DNA of 61,605 nt, taken from the NCBI GenBank assembly GCA_018303785.1, contig JAGVXM010000001.1:1-61605 (forward strand), read 5' to 3'. Made by a program: the position numbers and the translations under genes. The DNA comes from Candidatus Pacearchaeota archaeon (GTDB taxonomy: Archaea; Nanobdellota; Nanobdellia; Pacearchaeales; GW2011-AR1). The first letter of the stretch is position 1. Every line of letters begins with the position of its first letter. Below, one piece after another: positions 1-54,269 of this stretch. The notes under the pieces were generated by a model. It did not search any database, had not been told where the DNA came from, and saw only the letters and a program-made list of their open reading frames with translations.

Positions 1-462
<462 letters not shown>

Positions 463-9274: not shown

Positions 9275-9982
9275 TTAAAATATTCTATCTCCATTTTCAT
9301 TATCCGCACTTTCATACCACACTGCAAACGGATCTTCAATAACATAACGGCAATTTGATAAACGATTTTTTATTATTTTTTCTGAATGATTTCTTCCTAA
9401 AAATAAAATACCTCGCTCATTTTCTTTCAAAGTTTTCTCAATTGTTTTTCCAATCCATTTTTCTCTGATTGATCCAAAATCAAAAGTTTTTTCTCCATCT
9501 AAAAACTCTTGAATTAACTGAAAATTATCCGCATATGATTCAATTTCTCTCATAATTTCTACAGGATTTTTTCCGTGAACGTCATATTTCAAATATTCCG
9601 CCGCTTTTCCATAACCTCCGAGTCTATTATTATAAGCGACTAATAATTGATTAAATCCTGGATGTTCAGTTAGTTCAAAAGAACAGCCTTGTGAAGCTAA
9701 TGCCCTCACCGGCTTAAGACATGAATCATTTTCTTGAAGAATCCGTTCAGCATTTTTATAATATCCATCAAATCCCTCAAAATATATTCGAGAGAAAGGA
9801 TTTTGGTAATAATCTGCCAAGATATATTCAGTAACAGACCCGTAAACTTCTCGCAGCATTTTATTCTTCTCTTCAGCTATTACTCTTAGATTATGTGGTA
9901 AGTCTTGCGACATCAACGGAGAGCAATCATGCACCATTTTAAAATGCACTAATTCACGATTTGGTTTTTTCTGTTTATCCAT
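9275..9982 (-). CDS. Hypothetical protein (235 aa), last gene of a 3-gene operon
   Basis: Its start overlaps the upstream stop (ATGGATAA). I recognise no confident motif. Confidence 0.6.
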   Translation of the reverse strand: MDKQKKPNRELVHFKMVHDCSPLMSQDLPHNLRVIAEEKNKMLREVYGSVTEYILADYYQNPFSRIYFEGFDGYYKNAERILQENDSCLKPVRALASQGCSFELTEHPGFNQLLVAYNNRLGGYGKAAEYLKYDVHGKNPVEIMREIESYADNFQLIQEFLDGEKTFDFGSIREKWIGKTIEKTLKENERGILFLGRNHSEKIIKNRLSNCRYVIEDPFAVWYESADNENGDRIF

Positions 9983-11045
9983 TTTTTTCTAATCTCACAT
10001 TCTCATAACAAACTTCTTCTCCGTCGACAAATAATAATCCTGCTAATCCTTTATCGCCATGCCCAGAATTCCAGAATAATTCTTTCGTCGGTGTTTTCTC
10101 CGGAATATAATTTCCTTTGCTGTCATGTGTTCTATGAGAGGATTCATGGAAATGTCCAGACACTGCTTTTGTGATTCCAAGTTGTTCATATAATTGTTTT
10201 AAATCTTTATTACCGCGGTTAGTTTTTTGTTCAACTAAAATTTTTAGAATATCTAATCCTCGCGTCCACATTTCTGTTTTAACCGCAGCTTCAATGTCAT
10301 TTTCTGCAGTATTTGATCTGTAAATAGGAGTATTATCTCTTTGCGCCAATGCGGAATTAAAAGCAACTGCGGGAAAAACTCCTTTACTCTGATACTCCTC
10401 TTTTCCTTTTGAATATTCTCGCGATTCATAAAAATGAGCTACATCAACTCCTCTTTCTACAGTATCAAATTTTCGTGGTACATGGCAGATAGCAATTGTT
10501 TTTTCAGGCTCAGTTACTAATGATCGTAAATCATTCATATTGCTAAAATGAAATGCAGAAACACCGCCATATTTCATGCATATGTTATATTGATTCCAAT
10601 CTCTAAATAAACTAAGAATACCGGCTTCTGATCTAACGAAATTTCCCGTAGATATTTTCTCATCTTTTCCAATAAAATATTCTCCACCACAGGTAAAATC
10701 AGAGCCTGGTAAAAATACTAAGGTGTGTTCTTTTTGTTCCACTTTTGGACTTTTTATCACGTCAATAATATTTCTAAATTTCTGGGAAAAATGTTCTATC
10801 ACAGGAGAATACCCTAACAGCGTTTCATGACTCCCTGGCTGCACATAACACTCCAATCCTGTTTTACCAATTTCATTCAAAATGAAAGCAGTATATGCCT
10901 GTGAATTTTCAAGCGAACCATAGTTACCACCAATATCTCCATTTACAATAAGCTTTTCTACGCCTTTCTGAACTAAAGCTTCAAGTAATGGATTAATTAT
11001 CCGAGGGTCCTCATGAATATCTGAAATAAAACCGTAGGTTGTCAT
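9975..11045 (-). CDS. Calcineurin-like metallophosphoesterase
   Basis: Motifs seen are ISDIHEDP, VNGDIGGN, PGSHE, ICHVP and GHFHES. The probable start is M20 (11045), 4 nt after the upstream stop. The ORF track extends it to 11102. Confidence 0.75.
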   Translation of the reverse strand: MTTYGFISDIHEDPRIINPLLEALVQKGVEKLIVNGDIGGNYGSLENSQAYTAFILNEIGKTGLECYVQPGSHETLLGYSPVIEHFSQKFRNIIDVIKSPKVEQKEHTLVFLPGSDFTCGGEYFIGKDEKISTGNFVRSEAGILSLFRDWNQYNICMKYGGVSAFHFSNMNDLRSLVTEPEKTIAICHVPRKFDTVERGVDVAHFYESREYSKGKEEYQSKGVFPAVAFNSALAQRDNTPIYRSNTAENDIEAAVKTEMWTRGLDILKILVEQKTNRGNKDLKQLYEQLGITKAVSGHFHESSHRTHDSKGNYIPEKTPTKELFWNSGHGDKGLAGLLFVDGEEVCYENVRLEKNG

Positions 11046-11049
11046 GGTA

Positions 11050-11658
11050 TTAATAAAAAGGCTGCGTAGATATTTTAATGTGTTTATCTGCCAATTCTCC
11101 ATTTTCTGTAGAATAAAGGTCTATGAATTTTTTCTTTTTGGAATCTGATTTAGCTTTTAAATAATGCTCTTCATTTATCCAAAATTTTATTGTTCTAAAC
11201 CATGCATGACGTTCGGGTAATGATGGTAAAAAATAATTTTCATTAATGTCTAATTCTACAAATACATCTAAATCTTTATTAGAATTATAAAATTCATAAA
11301 ACAAAGGATATCCTTGAGTATGTAGGATAATCTGATCATTTTCTATTGTTATTCCATCAGGTAACGATATTCCATCACCTGATAATTGATTTACTTTTTC
11401 AGTTAATTGTTGAATCTGTGAACCAAAAAGGTATATCCCCCGTACAGGTATCCGTCTAAAGTCTCGGACCAATCTAAAAAAAGATACCGATTGAATACCT
11501 TCCTTTTTGTACTCATTCGTAGGATTATATCCATTAAATTGACTCAGTAAGCCTTGTGCAATCGGATGAGCGTAATGATGGTAAAATTCACAGATATTAT
11601 TAATTAAATGGTCCAGATTTATTATATCATTTTTGTCAAAAAGCTTATTTTTTTCCAT
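11050..11658 (-). CDS. Hypothetical protein (202 aa), first gene of the operon
   Basis: IYLFGS and DLDVFVELD loosely recall nucleotidyltransferase G-S / DxD strings, but the spacing is atypical. Confidence 0.55.
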   Translation of the reverse strand: MEKNKLFDKNDIINLDHLINNICEFYHHYAHPIAQGLLSQFNGYNPTNEYKKEGIQSVSFFRLVRDFRRIPVRGIYLFGSQIQQLTEKVNQLSGDGISLPDGITIENDQIILHTQGYPLFYEFYNSNKDLDVFVELDINENYFLPSLPERHAWFRTIKFWINEEHYLKAKSDSKKKKFIDLYSTENGELADKHIKISTQPFY

Positions 11659-28407: not shown

Positions 28408-28481
28408 CGCCCCCACGAGGATTTGAACCCCGGTTTCAAGCTCCGCAAGCTCGCGTTCTATCCAGGCTGAACTATAAGGGC
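28408..28481 (-). tRNA. tRNA-Arg (anticodon GCG)
   Basis: The rc reads GCCCTTA-TA-GTTC..GAAC-G-CGAGC-TTGCGGA-GCTTG-AAAC-CGGGG-TTCAAAT-CCTCG-TGGGGGC-G. The cloverleaf folds by hand (acceptor stem with 2 G-U pairs) and no CCA is encoded. Confidence 0.85.
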
Positions 28482-41145: not shown

Positions 41146-41220
41146 TAGCGGGAGATGGATTTGAACCATCGACCTCCGGGTTATGGGCCCGGCGAGAACT
41201 CCAGACTTCTCTACCCCGCT
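41146..41220 (-). tRNA. Initiator tRNA-Met (anticodon CAT)
   Basis: The rc reads AGCGGGG...CCGGG-CCCATAA-CCCGG...GATGG-TTCAAAT-CCATC-TCCCGCT-A. The A1:U72 pair and three G-C pairs closing the anticodon stem are archaeal initiator hallmarks. Confidence 0.85.
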
Positions 41221-46262: not shown

Positions 46263-46315
46263 CTCTAAGTGAGAAAAATCAAAAATCAGTATGTGGGAAC
46301 AATACTTCACACATA
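46263..46315. repeat. Repeat element copy C
   Basis: CTCTAAGTGAGAAAAATC...TATGTGGGAACAATACTTCACACATA. The last 26 nt match copy B at 22 positions by hand count. Confidence 0.55.
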
Positions 46316-46323
46316 TTTATAAA
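46316..46323 (+). promoter_or_regulatory. TATA box (TTTATAAA) 29 nt upstream of ATG 46345
   Basis: The spacing is leaderless and supports the internal start for rnhB. Confidence 0.45.
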
Positions 46324-46344
46324 TTATTCTTATTTTTTAACGGC

Positions 46345-46986
46345 ATGAAAGTTCTCGGCATTGATGAAGCAGGAAGAGGTCCGGTGATTGGTCCACTTAT
46401 TATTGCAGGCGTTATGATTGAAGACGGTGAAGAAGACAAAATTAATGGGGTCAAAGATTCTAAATTATTATCGCATAAAAAAAGAATCGAGCTAGATAAA
46501 AAAATCAGAGAAAATGCTGAGTTTATTATTATCGAAGTTCCACCAAAAGAAATTGATGAAGCATTAGAATCAGATACCTTAAATTTAAATTGGCTTGAAG
46601 CACACAAGCAGGCAGAAATTATCAATGCATTAAATCCTGATAAAGCAATTATTGATTGCCCTTCACCAAACTGCAAAGCATATGAAAAATATCTGCGAGA
46701 TTTATTGACAAATAAAGGTACAAAATTAGTTGTTGAACATAAAGCAGATGTGAATTATCCTACTTGTTCTGCAGCTTCTATTATAGCTAAAGTCAGAAGA
46801 GAAGATGTCATGGATGACATTAAAAGCATGTATGGTGACACGGGGCCTGGTTATCCTGCACATGCTACAACTCAGAAGTTTATTGAAGAGAACTGGGATA
46901 AGCATCCTGAAATATTTAGGAAATCATGGGCAACCTTCAAAAATCAGGAAAAGATGAAGAATCAAAAGACGCTGCAGGGGTTTTGA
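46345..46986 (+). CDS. rnhB: Ribonuclease HII
   Basis: MKVLGIDEAGRGPVIGPLIIAG and DSKLLS are seen. The start is moved from the ORF-track 46291 to 46345 on promoter spacing and family N-terminus. Confidence 0.85.
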   Translation: MKVLGIDEAGRGPVIGPLIIAGVMIEDGEEDKINGVKDSKLLSHKKRIELDKKIRENAEFIIIEVPPKEIDEALESDTLNLNWLEAHKQAEIINALNPDKAIIDCPSPNCKAYEKYLRDLLTNKGTKLVVEHKADVNYPTCSAASIIAKVRREDVMDDIKSMYGDTGPGYPAHATTQKFIEENWDKHPEIFRKSWATFKNQEKMKNQKTLQGF

Positions 46987-47069: not shown

Positions 47070-47408
47070 ATGAAAAACAGGCTACAGGGACAAGCATATG
47101 CATTCTTTGATTGTGATGCTTCCAAAGAAATAATTGAAAGTAAAATGCCAATTTTACGAAGAGAGAGTCAAACTCCGTCAGATTTAGAGCTTTCTTTAAC
47201 AGATGACTTAGACTCATTAAAAGAAGACGATTTACTATCTATTGTTCAGGAAGCAAAGGATTCGGGCATGAATTACCTCCTAAAGGCAACCTACCCCAAC
47301 GCAACTAATAAAAAAACTGCTGATGAGCTAGCTACAATGATAAATATGATAGAATTTAGTGGAGCTATAGTATATAAAGAAGGAGGTAACTACGTGTTTA
47401 AAGAATAA
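47070..47408 (+). CDS. Hypothetical protein (112 aa)
   Basis: It is the first gene of a co-directional, tightly packed cluster. Confidence 0.5.
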   Translation: MKNRLQGQAYAFFDCDASKEIIESKMPILRRESQTPSDLELSLTDDLDSLKEDDLLSIVQEAKDSGMNYLLKATYPNATNKKTADELATMINMIEFSGAIVYKEGGNYVFKE

Positions 47409-47414
47409 GGTAAA

Positions 47415-48173
47415 ATGGTAGACGCATATGATTTTATTGTTAACCAAAGAAAGAAGGAAATTGATGATAAAGACATTTCTGAAAAACTGGGGTTAGCAGG
47501 ACTTTCTTTTGGATTATCAGGAAATAAGTCATATGTAAGCAAAGAAGAATTAGAATTAATAAGAAGAGAAAAGTACAATTTTCCAAGTAATTATCTCCAT
47601 CCTCCTTTTTTAGTTGAATTTTCAAACGCTTATGTTATTGGAGGGGCTATAAAATTTAATGGAATTATTGAATCTAGAAGGACTTCTGGTTTATTCAGGC
47701 CAGATATGGCTTATTTATTTGTAGGAGATTTAATTGATGAGAATGGATTGTTGTTTTATCATCAAGGAGAGATATATAGAGATTCTGATTTATCACTAAA
47801 ACAGGTACTGACGGATTTCTCAAGAGCAAGAAACATGAATAAAAATAAGGATAAAGAACTTCAAATGCTTGCTATAAGAACTGGCTTTACATTAAGAACA
47901 AATCCATTAAAAAGAGAAGTTGAGGAAATGCCGGACATCGCGTGTTATAGTGTTGTTCATCCTGGAAAGTCATTTGGATTTGAATGGCCTTACTTAAATT
48001 TTCATAAAATTGAAATAAAAGAAAATGATCATGATGAACCAGAAAGAAAGGAGAGTGCTTTATCATTAGAATTATATAGGAATATACCTAAAGAAAATAC
48101 TGATAAAAGACAAAAGGTTTACGAAACATCCGATAATCCTCCAAGAAAAAATTCACAAGTATTAGAGTTGTAA
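47415..48173 (+). CDS. Hypothetical protein (252 aa)
   Basis: It lies 6 nt after the previous stop. Confidence 0.55.
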   Translation: MVDAYDFIVNQRKKEIDDKDISEKLGLAGLSFGLSGNKSYVSKEELELIRREKYNFPSNYLHPPFLVEFSNAYVIGGAIKFNGIIESRRTSGLFRPDMAYLFVGDLIDENGLLFYHQGEIYRDSDLSLKQVLTDFSRARNMNKNKDKELQMLAIRTGFTLRTNPLKREVEEMPDIACYSVVHPGKSFGFEWPYLNFHKIEIKENDHDEPERKESALSLELYRNIPKENTDKRQKVYETSDNPPRKNSQVLEL

Positions 48174-48177
48174 GAAA

Positions 48178-48450
48178 ATGAAATTTAAAACATCAAACCT
48201 TATTGGAACAATGAATGCATTAGCAGCAGGTATGATTAGTTATAATTATTTAACCGATTGTTTATCAACGGGAAATGCTCGTGAGGACTACTTAATGGGA
48301 TTGCCTATTTTAATGATTTCTATTCTTCCTTTCGCTTTTGGAGGATATATTTTTACAACTGCTTTCTGTGATAAACTTAAAAGAAAAGATAGATCATCAG
48401 AAAATAACCGCTATCATCTTGAAAATAATTTGGAGAGGAGTTGTGAATGA
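48178..48450 (+). CDS. Small membrane protein (90 aa, 2 TM)
   Basis: It lies 4 nt after the previous stop. Confidence 0.5.
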   Translation: MKFKTSNLIGTMNALAAGMISYNYLTDCLSTGNAREDYLMGLPILMISILPFAFGGYIFTTAFCDKLKRKDRSSENNRYHLENNLERSCE

Positions 48451-48451
48451 A

Positions 48452-48595
48452 ATGAATAAATTATCATCTAACGATCTAACAAAAAAATTTTCACGACGAG
48501 CATTGTTCAAAGATACCGGTTTAGCTCTTGGTACAGGTTCTATCATTGGAACGGGAGCATCGTTGAAGGTGCTGAAAAACAAATCAGAGAATTAG
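48452..48595 (+). CDS. 47-aa ORF consisting essentially of a twin-arginine (Tat) signal peptide
   Basis: MNKLSSNDLTKKFSRRALFKDTGLALGTGSIIGTGAS contains SRRALFK versus the consensus S/T-RRxFLK. It terminates 10 codons later. Confidence 0.45.
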   Translation: MNKLSSNDLTKKFSRRALFKDTGLALGTGSIIGTGASLKVLKNKSEN

Positions 48596-48636
48596 CGTTA
48601 GATGTTTCAGAGTTATCCGGCTCATTAGAAGGAAAA

Positions 48637-49767
48637 TTGCGAACAGAAAGAAAAGAGCTTGAGAAACATTATACGCAAGGAACTTTAGATATTTACGAAG
48701 ATTTAGGAATTGCAACGCCCGCTGAAATAAAAGAAATCGAACAGATTATAGAAAATTATGAGGCATTCGAAGAACATTACAATTTTGTGGAAAGAGCACG
48801 CGAATTTAAAGATCGTATTGATAGACGATTGTTAACCCTAGATGACTCATTAGAATCTTACCAACCCGAAGCATTAAGAAATATTAATGACTCTATCAGA
48901 AAGTTTTTAGGAAAACCTGCAGGAAAAGAAGGAATTTCTCATCGGAAACAAGTAAAAGATCGATTAGAAAAATTATGTACTATTTATGATACGAACAGTG
49001 ATAATAAACGTGCACAAATCGAGGTTGTAAAAACATTAAATAATTATTTAGATGATGCTACCTTAACAAAAGAGGAAAAAGATCTTTATGGATTTTTAAA
49101 AGAACAGCATGAAAAGGGCTGTAGTAAAGAGGACTTTCGACATTTCGTCGACAACTATGATAATTATTCTGAAAGACAAGAAGTTTTATTGCAATTGAAA
49201 TCTTCATTATCTGAAGCTGAAGAAATTTACGGAAAGATACAAGAAAATAAAGCTTATGTGCAAACATTACAAGATTTATTATATCAAGGCATTGCACTAA
49301 AACAAGAAGTTAGACAAAGAAGTACACAAGAAGTTTCTCAGTATAAAAAACAAATTGATACACAAATAGGAGAATTGAGAGATTCAGTTGATGGAGTAAT
49401 AAAAGAACTTAAGCAAAAAGGTTATGCAATTGAAACAAGACAAGATTATATCGATAAAGGATACTTTGCTCAATCAATTGGTGCTTTTCTCAAACCCTTT
49501 GTTATAGGAGGCACGCTAATTGCAGGTTCACTTGCTGCTATCGCTGCATTCAGAGGAAGAGCTAAAACGAGAAAAGTAAGATCAACCCAACAAGCATTAG
49601 AATCTGCGGTAGAAGCACACAATGAAATTTCTGAAAAATATGATATAGTCCATAGAAATTATGAATTATTAAAAAAAGCTAATTCCTTATTATCCCAAAA
49701 ATACGAAACAGAAAAAAATAAAAACCATGACTTACCAGATTATACAGAGGGGAGTGATATATACTAA
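48637..49767 (+). CDS. Coiled-coil protein with a C-terminal TM segment (376 aa from a TTG start); probably the body of the Tat-signal ORF
   Basis: There is no ATG start and the frame is open upstream to 48472. It is offset by one base from the 48452 ORF. Confidence 0.5.
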   Translation: MRTERKELEKHYTQGTLDIYEDLGIATPAEIKEIEQIIENYEAFEEHYNFVERAREFKDRIDRRLLTLDDSLESYQPEALRNINDSIRKFLGKPAGKEGISHRKQVKDRLEKLCTIYDTNSDNKRAQIEVVKTLNNYLDDATLTKEEKDLYGFLKEQHEKGCSKEDFRHFVDNYDNYSERQEVLLQLKSSLSEAEEIYGKIQENKAYVQTLQDLLYQGIALKQEVRQRSTQEVSQYKKQIDTQIGELRDSVDGVIKELKQKGYAIETRQDYIDKGYFAQSIGAFLKPFVIGGTLIAGSLAAIAAFRGRAKTRKVRSTQQALESAVEAHNEISEKYDIVHRNYELLKKANSLLSQKYETEKNKNHDLPDYTEGSDIY

Positions 49768-49769
49768 AA

Positions 49770-50156
49770 ATGACAACAAAAACCCTAAGAAATTGTGTTT
49801 TAATCGAACCGTTCATCTGTGATGAAAATGACTCAGTTATAGATGTAGCAAAAAAACTGCGAGAAATATCTTTACGACATATTTTCGTTGTCAATAAAGA
49901 AAATTTTCCGTTAGGAATAATTTCAATGACTGACATAAACAATAGAGTTGTTGCAGAAAATAAAAATTTAAATACAACAAAAGCCAGGGATATTATGAGT
50001 AAGCCAATTGATATTTTCGACATAAACGATGACGTACAGAGTTCTTATGAAAAGATGGTCGAGAAAAATCATGTCATGAATGCAGTAACTGAAAACAAAA
50101 AGATTAAAGGTATTATAACAATTCATCAATTGATGAAACAATGCGAGGAGAAATAA
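49770..50156 (+). CDS. CBS-domain pair protein (128 aa)
   Basis: It has the two-CBS-repeat pattern (VIDVAKKLREISLRHIFVV..., VQSSYEKMVEKNHVMNAV...GIITIHQLM). Confidence 0.65.
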   Translation: MTTKTLRNCVLIEPFICDENDSVIDVAKKLREISLRHIFVVNKENFPLGIISMTDINNRVVAENKNLNTTKARDIMSKPIDIFDINDDVQSSYEKMVEKNHVMNAVTENKKIKGIITIHQLMKQCEEK

Positions 50157-50371
50157 TGGCAGAAGAAGAAAACGATTTCTTAGAAAGAATAAGAGAGTAT
50201 AGAAATGAATTATATAAAACTAGAGAAGCTTATATTAATTTAAATAACAATACTGCAAGAGGGCATCCAATAACAAAGCATACAATTTCAGTTTATGAAA
50301 ATGCAATCAAAAGATTAGAACAATTATTTCCCGAATTAACAAACCAACCAGAAGTACAAAAAATATATTAA
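50156..50371 (+). CDS. Hypothetical helical protein (71 aa)
   Basis: Its ATG overlaps the CBS gene stop (TAATG). Confidence 0.45.
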   Translation: MAEEENDFLERIREYRNELYKTREAYINLNNNTARGHPITKHTISVYENAIKRLEQLFPELTNQPEVQKIY

Positions 50372-50373
50372 AC

Positions 50374-51006
50374 ATGAACAAAGAAAAATTCACCAAAACC
50401 TATTTTGAAAAATTATTAGATGATGAAGGTATTGAGAAATATTTCAATCAAGCAAAAACAGAAAGAGAAAAAGAAATGCTTAAGGAAAATTTGCGATTGT
50501 CGTTAGAAAAATCTTATGAAACTTATGCAAAGGAATATTTTGATTCAAAGGGTATTGGAAGTTATTTATCAACATTTTTACGATATACCGGAGCTGGGGC
50601 AGATACACTAGGAACTTACATGTTCTGGGCATTAGGAGGCGCAGGCTTTGGTGCTAAAGGAATAGGATTACTGGAAAAAACAGCAGCAGATGCCTTAGAT
50701 AGCTATCATTATGCAAAGCATGCAAAAGGAACATTAACAGAAAAGGTTGGCGATGAATCCATGGCATTGGGAGAAGGAGTTGCAACACGTGCCGCAGCTT
50801 ATTTACCTTTAGGAGTAGGGGAATTAGCTGATCTAATGAGAGGAAAAAATAAATTCGACAATAAAGTTGTCGGCAGAGCAGTGGAATATGCAAAAAACAA
50901 TTTCGTAGATTATTTGAAACGAGTCGAAGAAAAAGAACCATATATTGTTCCATTGCAGCGATTCAAAAATCCTGCGTATAGTTCAGATTATGCGCAGGCT
51001 GCATAA
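50374..51006 (+). CDS. Hypothetical Gly/Ala-rich protein (210 aa)
   Basis: It lies 2 nt after the previous stop. Confidence 0.5.
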   Translation: MNKEKFTKTYFEKLLDDEGIEKYFNQAKTEREKEMLKENLRLSLEKSYETYAKEYFDSKGIGSYLSTFLRYTGAGADTLGTYMFWALGGAGFGAKGIGLLEKTAADALDSYHYAKHAKGTLTEKVGDESMALGEGVATRAAAYLPLGVGELADLMRGKNKFDNKVVGRAVEYAKNNFVDYLKRVEEKEPYIVPLQRFKNPAYSSDYAQAA

Positions 51007-51401: not shown

Positions 51402-54269
51402 ATGACATTTATCAAAAAATTGGTGATGAAAGGTTTCAAGAGTTTTGCTCGAGAAACAGTAATAGACCTAGATCGTCATATGAACGTTATTGTTGGTCCG
51501 AATGGTTCAGGCAAGTCGAATATTACTGATGCACTCTGTTTTGTTTTAGGCAGATTATCAATTAAATCTATTAGAGCGGCAAAATCTTCTCATTTAATTT
51601 TTTCAGGAAATAAATTTTACAAGCCAGCACAATTCGCTTATGTAGAGATCGTATTAGATAACACTGCACGATTATTTGCCATCGAAAAAGATGAAATATC
51701 ATTGAAAAGAAGCGTCAACAAAAATGGACAATCAACCTATCGCATTAATGATGATGTCCGTACAAGGCAGGAAGTCCTGGAATTACTGAGTCAAGCAGGA
51801 ATAGATCCGCATGGATTCAATATCGTTCTTCAGGGAGAAATAATGAGATTTGTAAAAATGGCGTCAGATGAACGCAGAAAAATTATAGAAGAAGTCGCTG
51901 GAATTTCCATTTATGAAATGAGAAAAGAAAAATCTCTCAAAGAATTAGACAAAACAGAAGAAAAGTTGAGGCAAGTGAATGCGATCCTCCGAGAAAGAAC
52001 GAATTACATGAAAAATCTAGAAAATGAAAGAGAGGAAGCATTAAAATTCCAAAAATTACAGCAAACAGTTCTCATGTGCAAAGGATCAATTATAAACAAA
52101 ACAATCAATGAACGAGAAAAAATTATGAATGAAATTATAAAAAAGCTGGAAAACAAAAATAAAGAAATTGAAAAAATTGAGAAAGTTATTAAAACAGCAA
52201 AAATTTCAGTAGCAGAACTGCAGGAAAAAATAGACACGATAACGAAAACTATTCAAAAATCTGCAGGGGTTGAACAAGACACCCTTCTTGAAGAAATCTC
52301 ATTGTTAAAACAAGAGTTTGCGGGTATGATTGCACGAAAAGAAAATTTTGAAAATAAACTTGTAGAATTAGAAAGAAGAAAAAAAGCTCTCGATGAAACA
52401 GTGAAATCAACAGAAACAGAAATTCAATCCATGAGTAAAGAACATGGACGGGACACAAAAAAAGAACTCGATATAAAAAAGAAAAAATTAGAAACATTCG
52501 AGGAATCTAAAAGAAAATATTATCAAACAAAATCTAATTTATCCTTACTAATTTCACAGATTGAAGATAAAAAGCGACAAATCATAACGGCAAAAAATGA
52601 AACTAGCTTTATTTTACAACAAATTGAAAGTATTGAAAAAGAAATTAAAATTAAAGATACGTTGGATAATCATAAAAAAGCAGTCGTAACATTACGAAGT
52701 TCACTTGAAAAATTACGAGCAGAATTAATTGAATATAAAAAAAGTTTATTAGACAAAGAAAAAGAACAAGCAATTAAATCACAGTTAATAAAAGAGTCAG
52801 AAGAAATAAAAAAACAGGTATCAGAATTAGATGTCTGTCCTTTGTGTAAGACTGAAATTACCTCAGAACATAAAAACCATGTATTTGATAAATCAGACAA
52901 AGCTATTGACAATTCGCAGAAAAAGATTCAAGAACTACAAGAAGATATAAAGAATTCAGAGGAGACGATAAAAAAAATTGAGAAAGAGATATTTGATGCA
53001 GTCAATGAAGTAAATCTTCGGGAAATTTCTATATTAAAGTTGAATACCATTGAAGACAAAAAAGAACAAATTAAAAGAAATGAAGCTAATATAAAAATTA
53101 TCGATGAGGAAATAAAAAAATTAGGAACAAAGAAGAAAATAATTGAAGAGGAAATCTCAATGATGAAAATTAATGATGAAAATTATGATAATTTAAAATT
53201 AGAGGTCAATGAATTACAAAGAAGCGAAGAGCGCAATGTAGGATTCGAAATTTCGGCAAAACAGAGGGAGCTAGAACGTACAATACTCGCTTTAAAACAA
53301 ATAGCACGCGACGATGAAGAGATTAAAGAAGAAGTAAAAGATCTTGCAACCATTATAGCTGAAAAAGAAAAAATAATTGATGAAAAAGACAAACAAGCAG
53401 AAATGCTCAAAAAGAAATACCAGAAAATGTTTGAAGAAAGAAATTCGCTTCAGGACAAGTCAAGAGCAATCGAAACAGAACTACTCAATAAGCAAAATGA
53501 TAAGCGCATGATTGAAAATGAAATGAACAATTTAAAAATTGAAAGGGCACAGATACAGGCAAAAATAGATTCGTTCAGAGAAGAATTAAAGGAATTTGAA
53601 GTCGTAGAATTTTTGAACCTTCCCGTCGAGAGAATCCGTGAAAAACTCATGAATGCAGAAGAATCTTTAGCGAGAATCGGCAATGTAAATTTGCGTGCGT
53701 TAGAAGTATATGACTCAATTAAAGAGGAATATGAAAAAATCAGGGAAAAAGTAGAAAAATTAGAACAGGAAAAAGAAAACATCATGAAGGTTATTGCACA
53801 AATCGATAGAAAAAAGAAAAAAACATTTGTAGATACATTAGACAGAATAAATGAACTATTCACAAGAAATTTTTCAGAATTAAGCGAAAAAGGACTTGTA
53901 TCATTAGAACCGCAGGATAAAAAAGAAATGTTCGATGGAGGCTTAGATATCATTGTAAAAGTTGGTGCAGGAAAATACTTTGATGTAGCTTCATTATCTG
54001 GCGGAGAACAGTCATTAGTTGCCTTATCTTTAATTTTCGCAATTCAGGAACTTAATCCTTATTGCTTCTATATTTTCGACGAGATTGATGCCGCGTTAGA
54101 TAGAAGAAATTCTGAAAAGCTTGCTTATTTATTCAGAAAACACATGAAAAAAGGTCAATATCTAATTATTACCCATAATGATTCAATTATTAGCGAAAGT
54201 TCAAATATCTTATACGGAGTATCTATGCAAGAAGGTATTTCTAAAGTGTTGAGCTTGCAAATAAATTGA
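51402..54269 (+). CDS. SMC-family ATPase (955 aa) with a central CxxC zinc-hook-like motif in place of a hinge
   Basis: Head strings are KGFKSF...GPNGSGKSNITDA, VLQGEIMRFVKMASDERRKIIEEVAGIS, LSGGEQSLVALSLIFAI and FYIFDEIDAALD. The midpoint reads DVCPLCKTEITSEHKNH (CPLC at 52836-52847). Confidence 0.85.
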   Translation: MTFIKKLVMKGFKSFARETVIDLDRHMNVIVGPNGSGKSNITDALCFVLGRLSIKSIRAAKSSHLIFSGNKFYKPAQFAYVEIVLDNTARLFAIEKDEISLKRSVNKNGQSTYRINDDVRTRQEVLELLSQAGIDPHGFNIVLQGEIMRFVKMASDERRKIIEEVAGISIYEMRKEKSLKELDKTEEKLRQVNAILRERTNYMKNLENEREEALKFQKLQQTVLMCKGSIINKTINEREKIMNEIIKKLENKNKEIEKIEKVIKTAKISVAELQEKIDTITKTIQKSAGVEQDTLLEEISLLKQEFAGMIARKENFENKLVELERRKKALDETVKSTETEIQSMSKEHGRDTKKELDIKKKKLETFEESKRKYYQTKSNLSLLISQIEDKKRQIITAKNETSFILQQIESIEKEIKIKDTLDNHKKAVVTLRSSLEKLRAELIEYKKSLLDKEKEQAIKSQLIKESEEIKKQVSELDVCPLCKTEITSEHKNHVFDKSDKAIDNSQKKIQELQEDIKNSEETIKKIEKEIFDAVNEVNLREISILKLNTIEDKKEQIKRNEANIKIIDEEIKKLGTKKKIIEEEISMMKINDENYDNLKLEVNELQRSEERNVGFEISAKQRELERTILALKQIARDDEEIKEEVKDLATIIAEKEKIIDEKDKQAEMLKKKYQKMFEERNSLQDKSRAIETELLNKQNDKRMIENEMNNLKIERAQIQAKIDSFREELKEFEVVEFLNLPVERIREKLMNAEESLARIGNVNLRALEVYDSIKEEYEKIREKVEKLEQEKENIMKVIAQIDRKKKKTFVDTLDRINELFTRNFSELSEKGLVSLEPQDKKEMFDGGLDIIVKVGAGKYFDVASLSGGEQSLVALSLIFAIQELNPYCFYIFDEIDAALDRRNSEKLAYLFRKHMKKGQYLIITHNDSIISESSNILYGVSMQEGISKVLSLQIN

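What the first reader, a model, noticed from the sequence alone, without database searches (positions are those of the whole stretch)
51402..54269. SMC-type ATPase heads joined by a Rad50-type CxxC zinc hook instead of a hinge
**Heads are SMC-like, not Rad50-like.**
- N-terminus: KGFKSF....GPNGSGKSNITDALCFVLG
- Q-loop region: VLQGEIMRFVKMASDERRKIIEEVAGISIYE
- Signature motif: LSGGEQSLVALSLIFAI
- Walker B: FYIFDEIDAALD

**The midpoint looks like a Rad50 hook.** At the exact midpoint (aa 479-482 of 955; nt 52836-52847) the coiled coil carries DVCPLCKTEITSEHKNH. From memory this closely resembles the Pyrococcus Rad50 hook (CPVCGRELTDEHR).

**Hinge and partners.**
- I see no glycine-rich globular hinge.
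- The protein is about 200 aa shorter than canonical SMC.
- No kleisin (ScpA/B) or Mre11 gene is adjacent. The neighbours are a decayed ORF and a methyltransferase.

A head/hook chimera would imply zinc-mediated rather than hinge-mediated dimerisation of the sole visible SMC-like protein.
Basis: partly seen in the sequence, partly recalled or inferred. Interest (0 to 1): 0.7.

Follow-up and report, generated by a model that had tools for sequence, protein, structure and literature searches.

The report
Archaeal SMC with a zinc hook
This archaeal gene encodes a chromosome-organising SMC ATPase whose usual "hinge" dimerisation domain has been replaced by the zinc-hook motif of the DNA-repair protein Rad50, a swap conserved across a whole lineage of tiny DPANN archaea and previously made only by engineering in the laboratory.

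Summary
ORF 51402..54269 (+) encodes 955 aa. Its ATPase heads are SMC-type: Pyrococcus Smc head 1.5e-99, Rad50 heads only 1e-12. It has no SMC hinge: no Pfam hit at E<=1 and no hit to a purpose-built hinge HMM. A CPLC motif sits at aa 479-482, at the tip of a predicted coiled-coil hairpin.

The hook region is Rad50-like by four tests:
- Its profile finds only Rad50 hooks at the top of the PDB (1.2e-11).
- hhalign against the lineage's own Rad50 hook gives 98.8% probability, against 0.6-55% for arm controls.
- Pfam Rad50_zn_hook matches 17 of 26 diverse family members.
- The best Foldseek match of the AF2 model is 1L8D.

CPxC is invariant in every full-length relative examined, and at least 165 species-level genomes labelled Pacearchaeota, Woesearchaeota or Nanoarchaeota carry the narrow CPLC pattern. 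Hook and hinge never occur together. In a tree of the heads the hook proteins form one clade (99/100 bootstrap) among hinge-type archaeal SMCs.

The lineage also keeps a separate mre11-rad50 operon, so this is not a Rad50.

I found no published description. The closest precedent is the engineered, functional B. subtilis Smc(Zh) chimera.

Unresolved: whether a kleisin (ScpA) exists, and whether this is the only SMC in the genome.

Verdict: a new variant of a known kind.

The parts
51402..54269 (+). hook-type SMC gene (955 aa plus stop codon)
   Evidence: ORF. Pfam SMC_N 1.2e-47 over aa 3-946. SMC_prok_B 500 bits. The identical protein occurs on 18 public contigs.
51402..51902 (+). N-terminal half of the ABC ATPase head (aa 1-167), including the Q-loop Q144
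   Evidence: Aligns with the Pyrococcus Smc head from residue 1, E 1.5e-99. Mixed beta/alpha fold in the AF2 model. Many invariant columns.
51495..51518 (+). Walker A / P-loop, GPNGSGKS (aa 32-39)
   Evidence: Read directly from the sequence. G32 P33 N34 G35 G37 K38 S39 are invariant in 75 homologues.
51903..52826 (+). N-terminal strand of the coiled-coil arm (aa 168-475)
   Evidence: AF2 helices 168-344, 353-414 and 421-475. In 19 of the 21 hook-type representatives the arm measures 301-314 aa; the other two gave artefactual values. The neck segment aa 168-214 is highly conserved.
52827..52862 (+). zinc-hook loop at the arm tip (aa 476-487)
   Evidence: Non-helical loop between helices in both AF2 models. 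Aligns in register with the PfRad50 hook CPVCGRELTDEH.
52836..52847 (+). CPLC motif (C479, P480, L481, C482), the putative zinc ligands
   Evidence: TGTCCTTTGTGT. Invariant in 120 of 120 homologues. C, P and C are the only invariant columns in the diverse alignment A5.
52863..53681 (+). C-terminal strand of the coiled-coil arm (aa 488-760)
   Evidence: AF2 helices 488-587, 592-605, 615-732 and 742-759. The low-confidence breaks at 606-614 and 345-352 face each other.
53682..54266 (+). C-terminal half of the ATPase head (aa 761-955)
   Evidence: Aligns with the C-terminal part of the Pyrococcus Smc head, aa 707-954. Invariant H925 of the H-loop.
53994..54011 (+). ABC signature motif LSGGEQ (aa 865-870)
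   Evidence: Read directly from the sequence. L865 S866 G868 E869 Q870 are invariant.
54066..54101 (+). Walker B and D-loop, FYIFDEIDAALD (aa 889-900)
   Evidence: Read directly from the sequence. F889 Y890 F892 D893 E894 D896 A897 A898 L899 D900 are invariant.
46291..46986 (+). RNase HII gene, the conserved upstream neighbour of hook-type SMC (context only, not part of the protein)
   Evidence: Pfam RNase_HII. Lies upstream of the SMC gene in 52 of 82 loci, at a median distance of about 570 bp. Directly upstream.

Best explanation
The gene encodes the Pacearchaeota-lineage version of the archaeal condensin-type SMC protein. Its globular hinge, about 170-190 aa, has been replaced by a Rad50-type zinc hook.

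**Proposed mechanism.**
1. Each protomer folds back on itself. This gives an SMC ABC-ATPase head, an antiparallel coiled-coil arm of about 300 residues (roughly 45 nm), and a 12-residue loop carrying CPLC at the tip. Shown by sequence and by AF2.
2. Two protomers are joined at the arm tips by one Zn2+ ion held by the four cysteines, two from each chain, as in the Rad50 structure 1L8D. This gives a constitutive homodimer. Inferred.
3. The heads engage and disengage with ATP. All catalytic motifs are intact and invariant. The dimer acts on chromosomal DNA as prokaryotic Smc does, probably closed by a kleisin. Inferred; no partner was found.

**Origin.** The swap arose once, in the ancestor of this DPANN lineage. 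The most likely route is recombination with a Rad50-type hook segment. Some descendants later lost the hook as well, giving forms of about 800 aa.
For: **Heads are SMC.**
- SMC_prok_B 500 bits and SMC_prok_A 476 bits, against at most 90 bits for Rad50 models.
- PDB Smc heads reach 1.5e-99.

**No hinge**.

**The hook is Rad50-like.**
- The close-homologue profile A2 finds 6zff and 1l8d at about 7e-5 as its top hits.
- The diverse profile A5 finds 6zff at 1.2e-11, 1l8d at 2.6e-11, human RAD50 5gox at 1.5e-5 and 9q9h at 1e-3 as the top four hits, with CPxC and T..EH in register.
- hhalign against the Pacearchaeal Rad50 hook gives Prob 98.8 and E 7.7e-17 over 132 columns. Arm controls give 0.6-55%.
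- Pfam Rad50_zn_hook matches 17 of 26 diverse hook regions and P0143.
- The AF2 hairpin has pLDDT 92.5. Its best Foldseek match is 1l8d_B, TM 0.84, rmsd 2.3 A.

**Conservation and spread**.

**One clade among hinge-type SMCs.** 99/100 bootstrap. The nearest hinge-type relative that carries a name is a Woesearchaeota SMC.

**Housekeeping context.** Conserved RNase HII synteny, with DnaG and EF-1alpha nearby.

**A separate mre11-rad50 operon exists in the lineage**.

**Experimental plausibility.** B. subtilis Smc with the PfRad50 zinc hook in place of its hinge supports normal growth (PMC5344682). The Rad50 hook and an SMC hinge are interchangeable in yeast (PMC6969161).
Against: - No zinc binding, dimerisation or DNA activity has been measured. 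The dimer could not be modelled here.
- No ScpA or ScpB was found in the window or within 10 kb of 80 related loci. A kleisin-closed ring is therefore assumed, not shown.
- Whole genomes could not be scanned. A canonical hinge-type SMC elsewhere in the same genome is not excluded.
- The window protein's own hook region does not reach Pfam Rad50_zn_hook at E<=0.01.
- The Foldseek E-value is weak (0.047), as is usual for helical hairpins.
- The head tree is neighbour-joining and effectively unrooted, because the Rad50 outgroup failed the coverage filter.
- Descendants of about 800 aa do without the hook. The hook is therefore not indispensable in every lineage.
Confidence: 0.72

Rival explanations
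1. It is an extra, specialised SMC-like paralogue, for example for repair or defence. A canonical hinge-bearing SMC is encoded elsewhere in the same genomes, so the hook protein is not the cell's condensin.
For: - Whole genomes were not scanned.
- Archaea do carry additional hook-bearing SMC-related proteins, the ASRP/ClsN family (PMC9389158).
- PADLOC gives mad3 at 166 bits and LmuB at 90 bits.
- The score falls below the NCBIfam SMC equivalog cut-offs.
Against: - The heads are the closest relatives of canonical archaeal Smc. The clade nests among hinge-type SMCs instead of forming a distant family.
- There is one copy per locus, with housekeeping synteny (RNase HII, DnaG) and no defence partners.
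- No hinge-type protein lies among the nearest relatives of the hook clade. The nearest hinge-type relative that carries a name is labelled Woesearchaeota.
- The defence and ASRP scores are far below the SMC scores.
Confidence: 0.12
2. It works with an Mre11-type nuclease as a hybrid SMC/Rad50 machine for processing DNA ends or foreign DNA, and not (or not only) as a chromosome organiser.
For: - In a marine Pacearchaeota subclade an Mre11 homologue (396 aa; PfMre11 4e-24) lies immediately downstream of the hook-SMC gene and convergent with it. No Rad50 is next to it.
- The hook is the hallmark of Mre11 partners.
Against: - The adjacency is limited to one subclade, is convergent (not an operon), and is absent from the window.
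- The lineage has a canonical mre11-rad50 operon with its own 682-aa Rad50.
- The heads are SMC-type. The Rad50 coiled-coil base that binds Mre11 is not evident.
Confidence: 0.06
3. The CxxC is not an intermolecular zinc hook. It would be a structural or intramolecular metal site (for example with H490/H493), or a redox disulfide. Dimerisation would then occur by other means, such as arm-arm or head contacts.
For: - H490 is invariant among close homologues, and the window protein also has H493.
- Relatives of about 800 aa lack any Cys pair yet persist.
- No dimer model or metal measurement was possible.
Against: - Only C, P and C are invariant across the diverse family. The His is replaced by E, Y or A in distant members.
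- The same His position exists in PfRad50 (CPVCGRELTDEH). In 1L8D the Zn there is bound by four Cys from two chains (established structure; alignment).
- The similarity to Rad50 hooks in sequence, profile and fold is specific.
Confidence: 0.06
4. It is simply a divergent Rad50/SbcC mis-scored as SMC.
For: - CxxC at the midpoint and no hinge.
- Weak hits to Rad50 NCBIfam models at 35-90 bits.
Against: - SMC models score 476-500 bits.
- PDB Smc heads reach 1e-99, against 1e-12 for Rad50.
- The genuine Rad50 of the lineage is a different protein of 682 aa in an mre11 operon. It scores only about 20 bits on the SMC models.
Confidence: 0.02

Closest known systems
Prokaryotic condensin-type Smc (Smc-ScpA/ScpAB), e.g. 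Pyrococcus and Thermococcus Smc
   Same: - The ABC head matches, with all ATPase motifs (1.5e-99 to the Pyrococcus Smc head).
- The neck is conserved.
- The long antiparallel arm is nearly the same length: N-arm about 307 aa against about 325-340 aa.
- It is a single-copy gene in a housekeeping context.
- It nests among archaeal SMCs.
   Different: - It has no hinge domain (PF06470), only a 12-residue CPLC loop.
- It falls below the NCBIfam SMC equivalog cut-offs.
- No ScpA or ScpB is found nearby.
Rad50/SbcC zinc hook (PDB 1L8D, 6ZFF, 5GOX; Pfam PF04423)
   Same: - CPxC sits at the apex of an antiparallel coiled coil.
- Flanking motifs are in register (LDxCPxC...T.EH).
- It matches by profile, by profile-profile comparison and by fold.
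   Different: - The heads are not Rad50-type.
- The gene is not in an mre11 operon.
- The lineage's own Rad50 is a separate 682-aa protein with the hook CPTCLQxVD.
Engineered B. subtilis Smc(Zh) chimera: Smc with the P. furiosus Rad50 zinc hook in place of its hinge (Burmann et al. 2017, PMC5344682)
   Same: The architecture is exactly the same: SMC heads and arms joined by a Rad50 hook. The chimera supports normal growth, and its function depends on arm length and not on the fold of the dimerisation domain.
   Different: The chimera is man-made and bacterial. The protein here is natural and archaeal. It is conserved in at least 165 species-level genomes, and the position of its hook hardly varies.
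Archaea-specific SMC-related proteins (ASRP: ClsN/coalescin, Sph1/2)
   Same: They are archaeal SMC-superfamily ATPases with a zinc-hook motif at the coiled-coil tip (PMC9389158).
   Different: - ASRPs are a separate family of about 590 aa with divergent heads.
- The window protein scores 101 bits on the ASRP model (cut-off 300), and only over its C-terminal head, against 500 bits on SMC.
'Hinge-less' SMC variants of marine Actinobacteria (Sussfeld et al. 2025, PMC12153180)
   Same: They have SMC-type heads and arms and lack the hinge domain.
   Different: - Those are bacterial, and the authors state that they lack the CXXC motif.
- They resemble the hook-less forms of about 800 aa seen here more than they resemble the hook-type protein.

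Membership tests
SMC (prokaryotic condensin-type Smc) | SMC-type ABC ATPase head with Walker A, Q-loop, signature motif, Walker B/D-loop and H-loop, closest to Smc heads | tested here: met
   Pfam SMC_N 1.2e-47. SMC_prok_B 500 bits against Rad50 at most 90 bits. Pyrococcus Smc head 1.5e-99. The motifs are invariant.
SMC (prokaryotic condensin-type Smc) | Long intramolecular antiparallel coiled-coil arm of about 45-50 nm | tested here: met
   The AF2 full-length model gives helices 168-475 and 488-760. The N-arm is 301-314 aa in 19 of 21 hook-type representatives, against a mode of 320-340 aa in hinge-type relatives.
SMC (prokaryotic condensin-type Smc) | Globular hinge dimerisation domain (Pfam PF06470) at the arm tip | tested here: not met
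   No SMC_hinge hit at E<=1. A custom hinge HMM finds the hinge in relatives and nothing in hook-type proteins. No Gly between aa 351 and 550.
SMC (prokaryotic condensin-type Smc) | Reaches the NCBIfam equivalog cut-off (TIGR02168 or TIGR02169) | tested here: not met
   500 bits against a cut-off of 567.35, and 476.5 bits against 729.4. The match comes in two stretches that skip the hinge.
SMC (prokaryotic condensin-type Smc) | Kleisin partner (ScpA) bridging the heads, with or without ScpB | not testable with these tools
   No ScpA or ScpB Pfam hit was listed for the window, and there is no conserved candidate within 10 kb of 80 loci. Whole genomes could not be scanned.
Rad50/SbcC | CxxC zinc-hook motif at the apex of the coiled coil | tested here: met
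   Profiles hit the Rad50 hooks 6zff, 1l8d and 5gox. hhalign gives 98.8% against controls of 0.6-55%. PF04423 matches 17 of 26 relatives, though not the window sequence itself. Foldseek's top hit is 1l8d.
Rad50/SbcC | Rad50-type ATPase head | tested here: not met
   Rad50 NCBIfam models give 33-90 bits against cut-offs of 700-1087. PDB Rad50 heads give only 2e-12. The lineage's real Rad50 is a different protein.
Rad50/SbcC | Encoded with, and acting with, an Mre11/SbcD nuclease | tested here: not met
   tblastn finds no Mre11 in the window. The canonical mre11-rad50 operon lies elsewhere in the lineage. One subclade has only a convergent second Mre11.
Rad50/SbcC | Interchain Zn(Cys)4 coordination that dimerises two chains | not testable with these tools
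   Only monomer prediction was possible. No metal or oligomer data exist.
ASRP (ClsN/Sph) | Reaches the NCBIfam NF045487 equivalog cut-off; protein of about 590 aa | tested here: not met
   101 bits against a cut-off of 300, covering only aa 637-925.
Defence SMC-like ATPases (Lamassu LmuB, Wadjet JetC, MADS mad3) | Best match to a defence-family model, with cognate partner genes adjacent | tested here: not met
   mad3 gives 166 bits over the N-head only, LmuB 90 bits and JetC 54 bits, all far below SMC at 500 bits. The neighbours are housekeeping genes.

The most novel reading that the evidence does not exclude
Hook-SMC is the only SMC of the Pacearchaeota lineage, and it works with neither a hinge nor a recognisable ScpA-type kleisin. 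That would be a natural minimal SMC machine, closed only by a zinc hook and ATP-engaged heads. Sister lineages have gone further and dropped the hook too (forms of about 800 aa). The hinge, long discussed as a DNA-entry gate and DNA-binding site, would then be dispensable in nature, and the lineage would offer a graded natural series: hinge, then hook, then nothing.
Probability: 0.2. Interest if true: 0.85.

Novelty: new variant of a known kind. Interest (0 to 1): 0.66.

Why it matters
The role of the SMC hinge is a long-running question. It may be a mere dimerisation clasp, or an active DNA gate and DNA-binding module.

In 2017 an engineered B. subtilis Smc carrying the Pyrococcus Rad50 zinc hook was found to be functional. 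The conclusion was that the fold of the dimerisation domain is irrelevant and that arm geometry matters.

This finding shows that evolution made the same swap. The swap has been maintained across a large archaeal lineage, at least 165 species-level genomes. The hook position is almost invariant, which is consistent with a constraint on arm length.

It provides:
- natural proteins for testing hinge-independent SMC loading and loop extrusion;
- a probable case of domain exchange between the two oldest branches of the SMC superfamily;
- with the hook-less relatives of about 800 aa, a natural series of deletions at the arm tip.

It also has a practical consequence for annotation. These proteins fail the SMC equivalog cut-offs and are named inconsistently ('AAA family ATPase', 'hypothetical protein').

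Tried and rejected
1. **Looking for a kleisin.**
   - Pfam scans of essentially all window ORFs of >=100 aa listed no ScpA or ScpB. Three matched families and one were not listed.
   - Clustering about 1300 ORFs flanking 82 hook-SMC loci gave no conserved candidate.
   - I tried to obtain an archaeal ScpA seed from smc neighbourhoods of hinge-type relatives. It was not adjacent, or the contig ended at smc.
   - Database searches list only the 120 best hits, so a Euryarchaeal or bacterial ScpA query could not reach Pacearchaeota. I abandoned this line.
2. **Hypothesis that hook-SMC replaces Rad50.** Rejected. The lineage has a canonical mre11-rad50 operon and more than 3700 Rad50 homologues.
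3. **Window ORF 9975-11102 as Mre11.** No PDB hit. tblastn finds no Mre11 in the window.
4. **Genome scan with the diverse hook alignment A5.** It failed because no stretch was conserved enough. I repeated it with A2.
5. **Rad50 outgroup for the head tree.** The Rad50 sequences failed the HMM coverage filter, so the tree is unrooted.
6. **C-arm lengths from the head-C HMM.** The values were noisy because the coiled coil gives spurious hits. Only N-arm lengths are used.
7. **How much of the arm is Rad50-derived.** hhalign on the flanking helices gave 94.8% for the post-hook helix, but unrelated controls reached 80%. Inconclusive.
8. **Co-occurrence of Rad50 and hook-SMC in one assembly.** Accession prefixes did not match, and one look-up returned only the JGI copy. 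Co-occurrence is shown at clade level only.
9. **Literature.**
   - No paper combines Pacearchaeota or DPANN with SMC and a zinc hook.
   - The supplements of the DPANN protein-family paper contain no ScpA, SMC or Rad50 terms.
   - Krishnan et al. 2020 (ABC ATPase classification) is not held, so prior mention there cannot be excluded.


Full report
**1. The observation**

ORF 51402..54269 on the + strand encodes 955 aa. CPLC lies at aa 479-482, nt 52836-52847.

The protein has five cysteines. It has no glycine between aa 351 and 550.

Pfam reports SMC_N at 1.2e-47 spanning aa 3-946. It reports no SMC_hinge hit even at E<=1.

The window is archaeal. It carries a partial 16S rRNA at 1-461 and has about 32% G+C. 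It corresponds to a 62-kb metagenomic contig, and the identical protein occurs on 18 public contigs.

**2. Heads and arms**

NCBIfam scores:

| Model | Bits | Cut-off |
|---|---|---|
| SMC_prok_B | 500 | 567 |
| SMC_prok_A | 476 | 729 |
| Rad50 models | 33-90 | 700-1087 |
| ASRP | 101 | 300 |

The SMC matches come in two stretches that skip the hinge.

Against PDB sequences, the best hits are Pyrococcus Smc heads at 1.5e-99. Rad50 heads reach only about 1e-12.

In 75 homologues every ATPase motif is invariant, and the neck of the coiled coil (aa 168-214) is highly conserved.

The full-length AlphaFold2 model has mean pLDDT 78.
- It gives a head, then helices 168-344, 353-414 and 421-475.
- A loop follows at 476-487, then helices 488-587, 592-605, 615-732 and 742-759, then the C-terminal head.
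- Two low-confidence breaks face each other at 345-352 and 606-614.

In 19 of the 21 hook-type representatives the N-terminal arm measures 301-314 aa; the other two values are HMM artefacts. In canonical hinge-type relatives the mode is about 320-340 aa. The roughly 200 missing residues are therefore essentially the hinge.

**3. The hook**

*PDB profile searches.*
- A profile of aa 415-550 from close homologues finds the P. furiosus Rad50 hook structures 6ZFF and 1L8D as its two best PDB hits, at about 7e-5. CPLC aligns on CPVC, and T..EH aligns on TDEH.
- A profile from diverse family members (13-49% identity) raises this to 1.2e-11 and 2.6e-11. It adds human RAD50 hooks (5GOX at 1.5e-5, 9Q9H at 1e-3) as hits three and four.

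*Control for coiled-coil composition.* Coiled-coil composition can inflate such scores, so I ran hhalign with controls.
- Hook-SMC hook against the Pacearchaeal Rad50 hook gives probability 98.8% and E 7.7e-17 over 132 columns, with CPxC in register.
- Seven comparisons of arm against hook or arm against arm give 0.6-55%.

*Pfam and fold.*
- Pfam Rad50_zn_hook matches 17 of 26 diverse hook regions at E<=0.01, best 3.2e-7. It does not match the window's own segment.
- The AF2 model of aa 415-550 is a confident helix-loop-helix hairpin, pLDDT 92.5.
- Its best Foldseek match in the PDB is 1L8D_B, with TM 0.84 and rmsd 2.3 A. The E-value is weak (0.047), as expected for hairpins.

**4. Family, distribution and evolution**

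*Conservation of the hook.*
- The 120 best database hits are 60-69% identical and about 954 aa long. All carry CPLC at the same position.
- In a library of 50%-identity representatives, 21 full-length clusters down to 39% identity have CPxC and no hinge.
- None of the hinge-bearing relatives has CPxC, so the two features exclude each other.
- Of 94 further long relatives, 93 have CPxC.

*Spread across genomes.*
- A scan of one genome per GTDB species with the narrow pattern [KE][LI]D[ITV]CPLC[KQ] found 165 genomes.
- The 80 best loci listed are titled Pacearchaeota, Woesearchaeota, Nanoarchaeota, Nanoarchaeia or 'archaeon', except one probably mis-binned 'Dojkabacteria' contig.
- In 79 of those 80 loci the gene is present with its first Cys at aa 479-485. 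Inteins or longer N-termini shift the numbering in a few.

*Phylogeny.*
- A neighbour-joining tree of the heads used 359 columns and 130 representatives.
- It puts all hook-type proteins, plus four forms of about 800 aa, in one clade with 99/100 bootstrap support. The clade sits among hinge-type SMCs.
- The tree is effectively unrooted.
- The nearest hinge-type relative that carries a name is a Woesearchaeota SMC. Distant hook-type proteins and the 800-aa forms are labelled Pacearchaeota.

**5. Context and partners**

*Neighbours.*
- RNase HII lies upstream of hook-SMC in 52 of 82 loci.
- In the window, a block of unknown ORFs about 4.4 kb long separates the two genes.
- Other recurrent neighbours are a surface-protein-like gene, an AP_endonuc_2 gene, DUF7557, DnaG and EF-1alpha.
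- No hinge domain and no second SMC-like gene occurs in any flank.
- No ScpA or ScpB was detected in the window or in the flanks. Searches list only 25 of the 28 and 26 matched families.

*Mre11 and Rad50.*
- In a marine subclade an Mre11 homologue (PfMre11 4e-24) lies convergent and directly after hook-SMC, without a Rad50.
- Following that lead showed that the lineage has a canonical mre11-rad50 operon.
- Its Rad50 is 682 aa, with the hook L[ED]xCPTCLQxVD. There are more than 3700 homologues, and many of those that carry a name are labelled Pacearchaeota.
- Hook-SMC is therefore not a substitute for Rad50.

*Defence families.* PADLOC models score far below SMC models.

**6. Mechanism**

Shown:
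- SMC head with intact catalytic motifs;
- arm of about 300 residues;
- Rad50-type CPxC loop at the tip;
- strong conservation of the Cys pair and of its position.

Inferred:
- two chains share one Zn2+ through four Cys, as in 1L8D, giving a constitutive dimer;
- ATP-driven head engagement acts on chromosomal DNA as in Smc-ScpA.

Two experiments make this plausible.
- Replacing the B. subtilis Smc hinge with the P. furiosus Rad50 hook gives a protein that supports normal growth. Its function depends on arm length (PMC5344682).
- A MukB hinge can replace the Rad50 hook in yeast (PMC6969161).

The near-invariant hook position in nature fits the arm-length constraint described in the first of those papers.

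**7. Comparison with what is known, and novelty**

It works like Smc but fails one defining feature of the family, the hinge. It also fails the curated equivalog cut-offs. It shares the hook with Rad50/SbcC but not the head or the operon. It is not an ASRP/ClsN.

'Hinge-less SMCs' have been reported in marine Actinobacteria, but the authors state that those lack CXXC (PMC12153180).

I found no paper describing a natural SMC with a zinc hook. The library lacks most subscription journals and the 2020 ABC-ATPase classification. Public annotation calls these proteins 'chromosome segregation SMC family protein', 'AAA family ATPase' or 'hypothetical protein'.

I rate it a new variant of a known kind.

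**8. Open points**

- Is there a kleisin?
- Is this the sole SMC in the genome?
- How much of the arm came from Rad50? The comparison was inconclusive.
- Zinc binding and dimerisation have not been measured.
- How do the relatives of about 800 aa, which have neither hook nor hinge, dimerise?

Noticed in passing
Related proteins P0140-P0142, P0144, P0416-P0449 and others (no window coordinates): A family of SMC proteins of about 790-809 aa, with named members labelled Pacearchaeota, has SMC heads but neither a hinge nor any CxxC. Its apex region is not conserved. In the head tree it nests inside the hook-type clade, which suggests secondary loss of the hook along with arm shortening.
   Followed up: partly
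L024 8823-9755, L028 11627-12817, L042 12482-13618, L047 2878-3597, L037 13684-14769; L088-L098: In a marine Pacearchaeota subclade a second Mre11 homologue (396 aa; PfMre11 4e-24) lies convergent and immediately downstream of the hook-SMC gene, with no Rad50 next to it. The canonical mre11-rad50 operon is elsewhere.
   Followed up: partly
L099 3056-5059; L100 11159-13207; L104-L112: The Rad50 of this lineage is unusually short, about 682 aa, so its arms are about half the usual length. Its hook motif L[ED]xCPTCLQxVD sits at aa 349. The local synteny mre11-rad50-proteasome-aCPSF1 is conserved.
   Followed up: partly
Related proteins P0081, P0088, P0094, P0126, P0129; loci L021, L056, L071, L074, L077, L087: Some hook-type SMC genes encode proteins of about 1475-1510 aa because of an intein (PF14528/PF14890). 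It is inserted about 25 residues from the N-terminus, at or beside the Walker A loop.
   Followed up: no
window 47070-51006: A block of about 4.4 kb interrupts the otherwise conserved RNase HII-SMC adjacency. It holds ORFs without family matches plus one CBS-domain protein, including a 376-451 aa coiled-coil/membrane-like protein and a 210-aa protein. The same block occurs in only about six related loci.
   Followed up: partly
An A+T-rich TTTATATA element lies about 35 nt before the ATG. I did not test whether the gap is a gene remnant.
   Followed up: no
Related proteins P0152, P0154, P0208, P0218, P0221, P0224, P0238 and others: Hinge-bearing SMCs with much shorter arms exist among the relatives. 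They are 818-963 aa in total, with N-arms of about 160-220 aa. Arm length is therefore not uniform across these lineages.
   Followed up: no
L017 (JAFCCB010000021.1): One hook-type SMC locus sits in an assembly titled 'Candidatus Dojkabacteria bacterium' (CPR bacteria), and P0109 is named 'Dehalococcoidia bacterium'. These are probably mis-binned archaeal contigs and not horizontal transfer.
   Followed up: no
window 1-461 (-); 28408-28481 (-); 41146-41220 (-): The window starts inside an archaeal 16S rRNA gene (model positions 1-478) and carries two tRNA genes.
   Followed up: no
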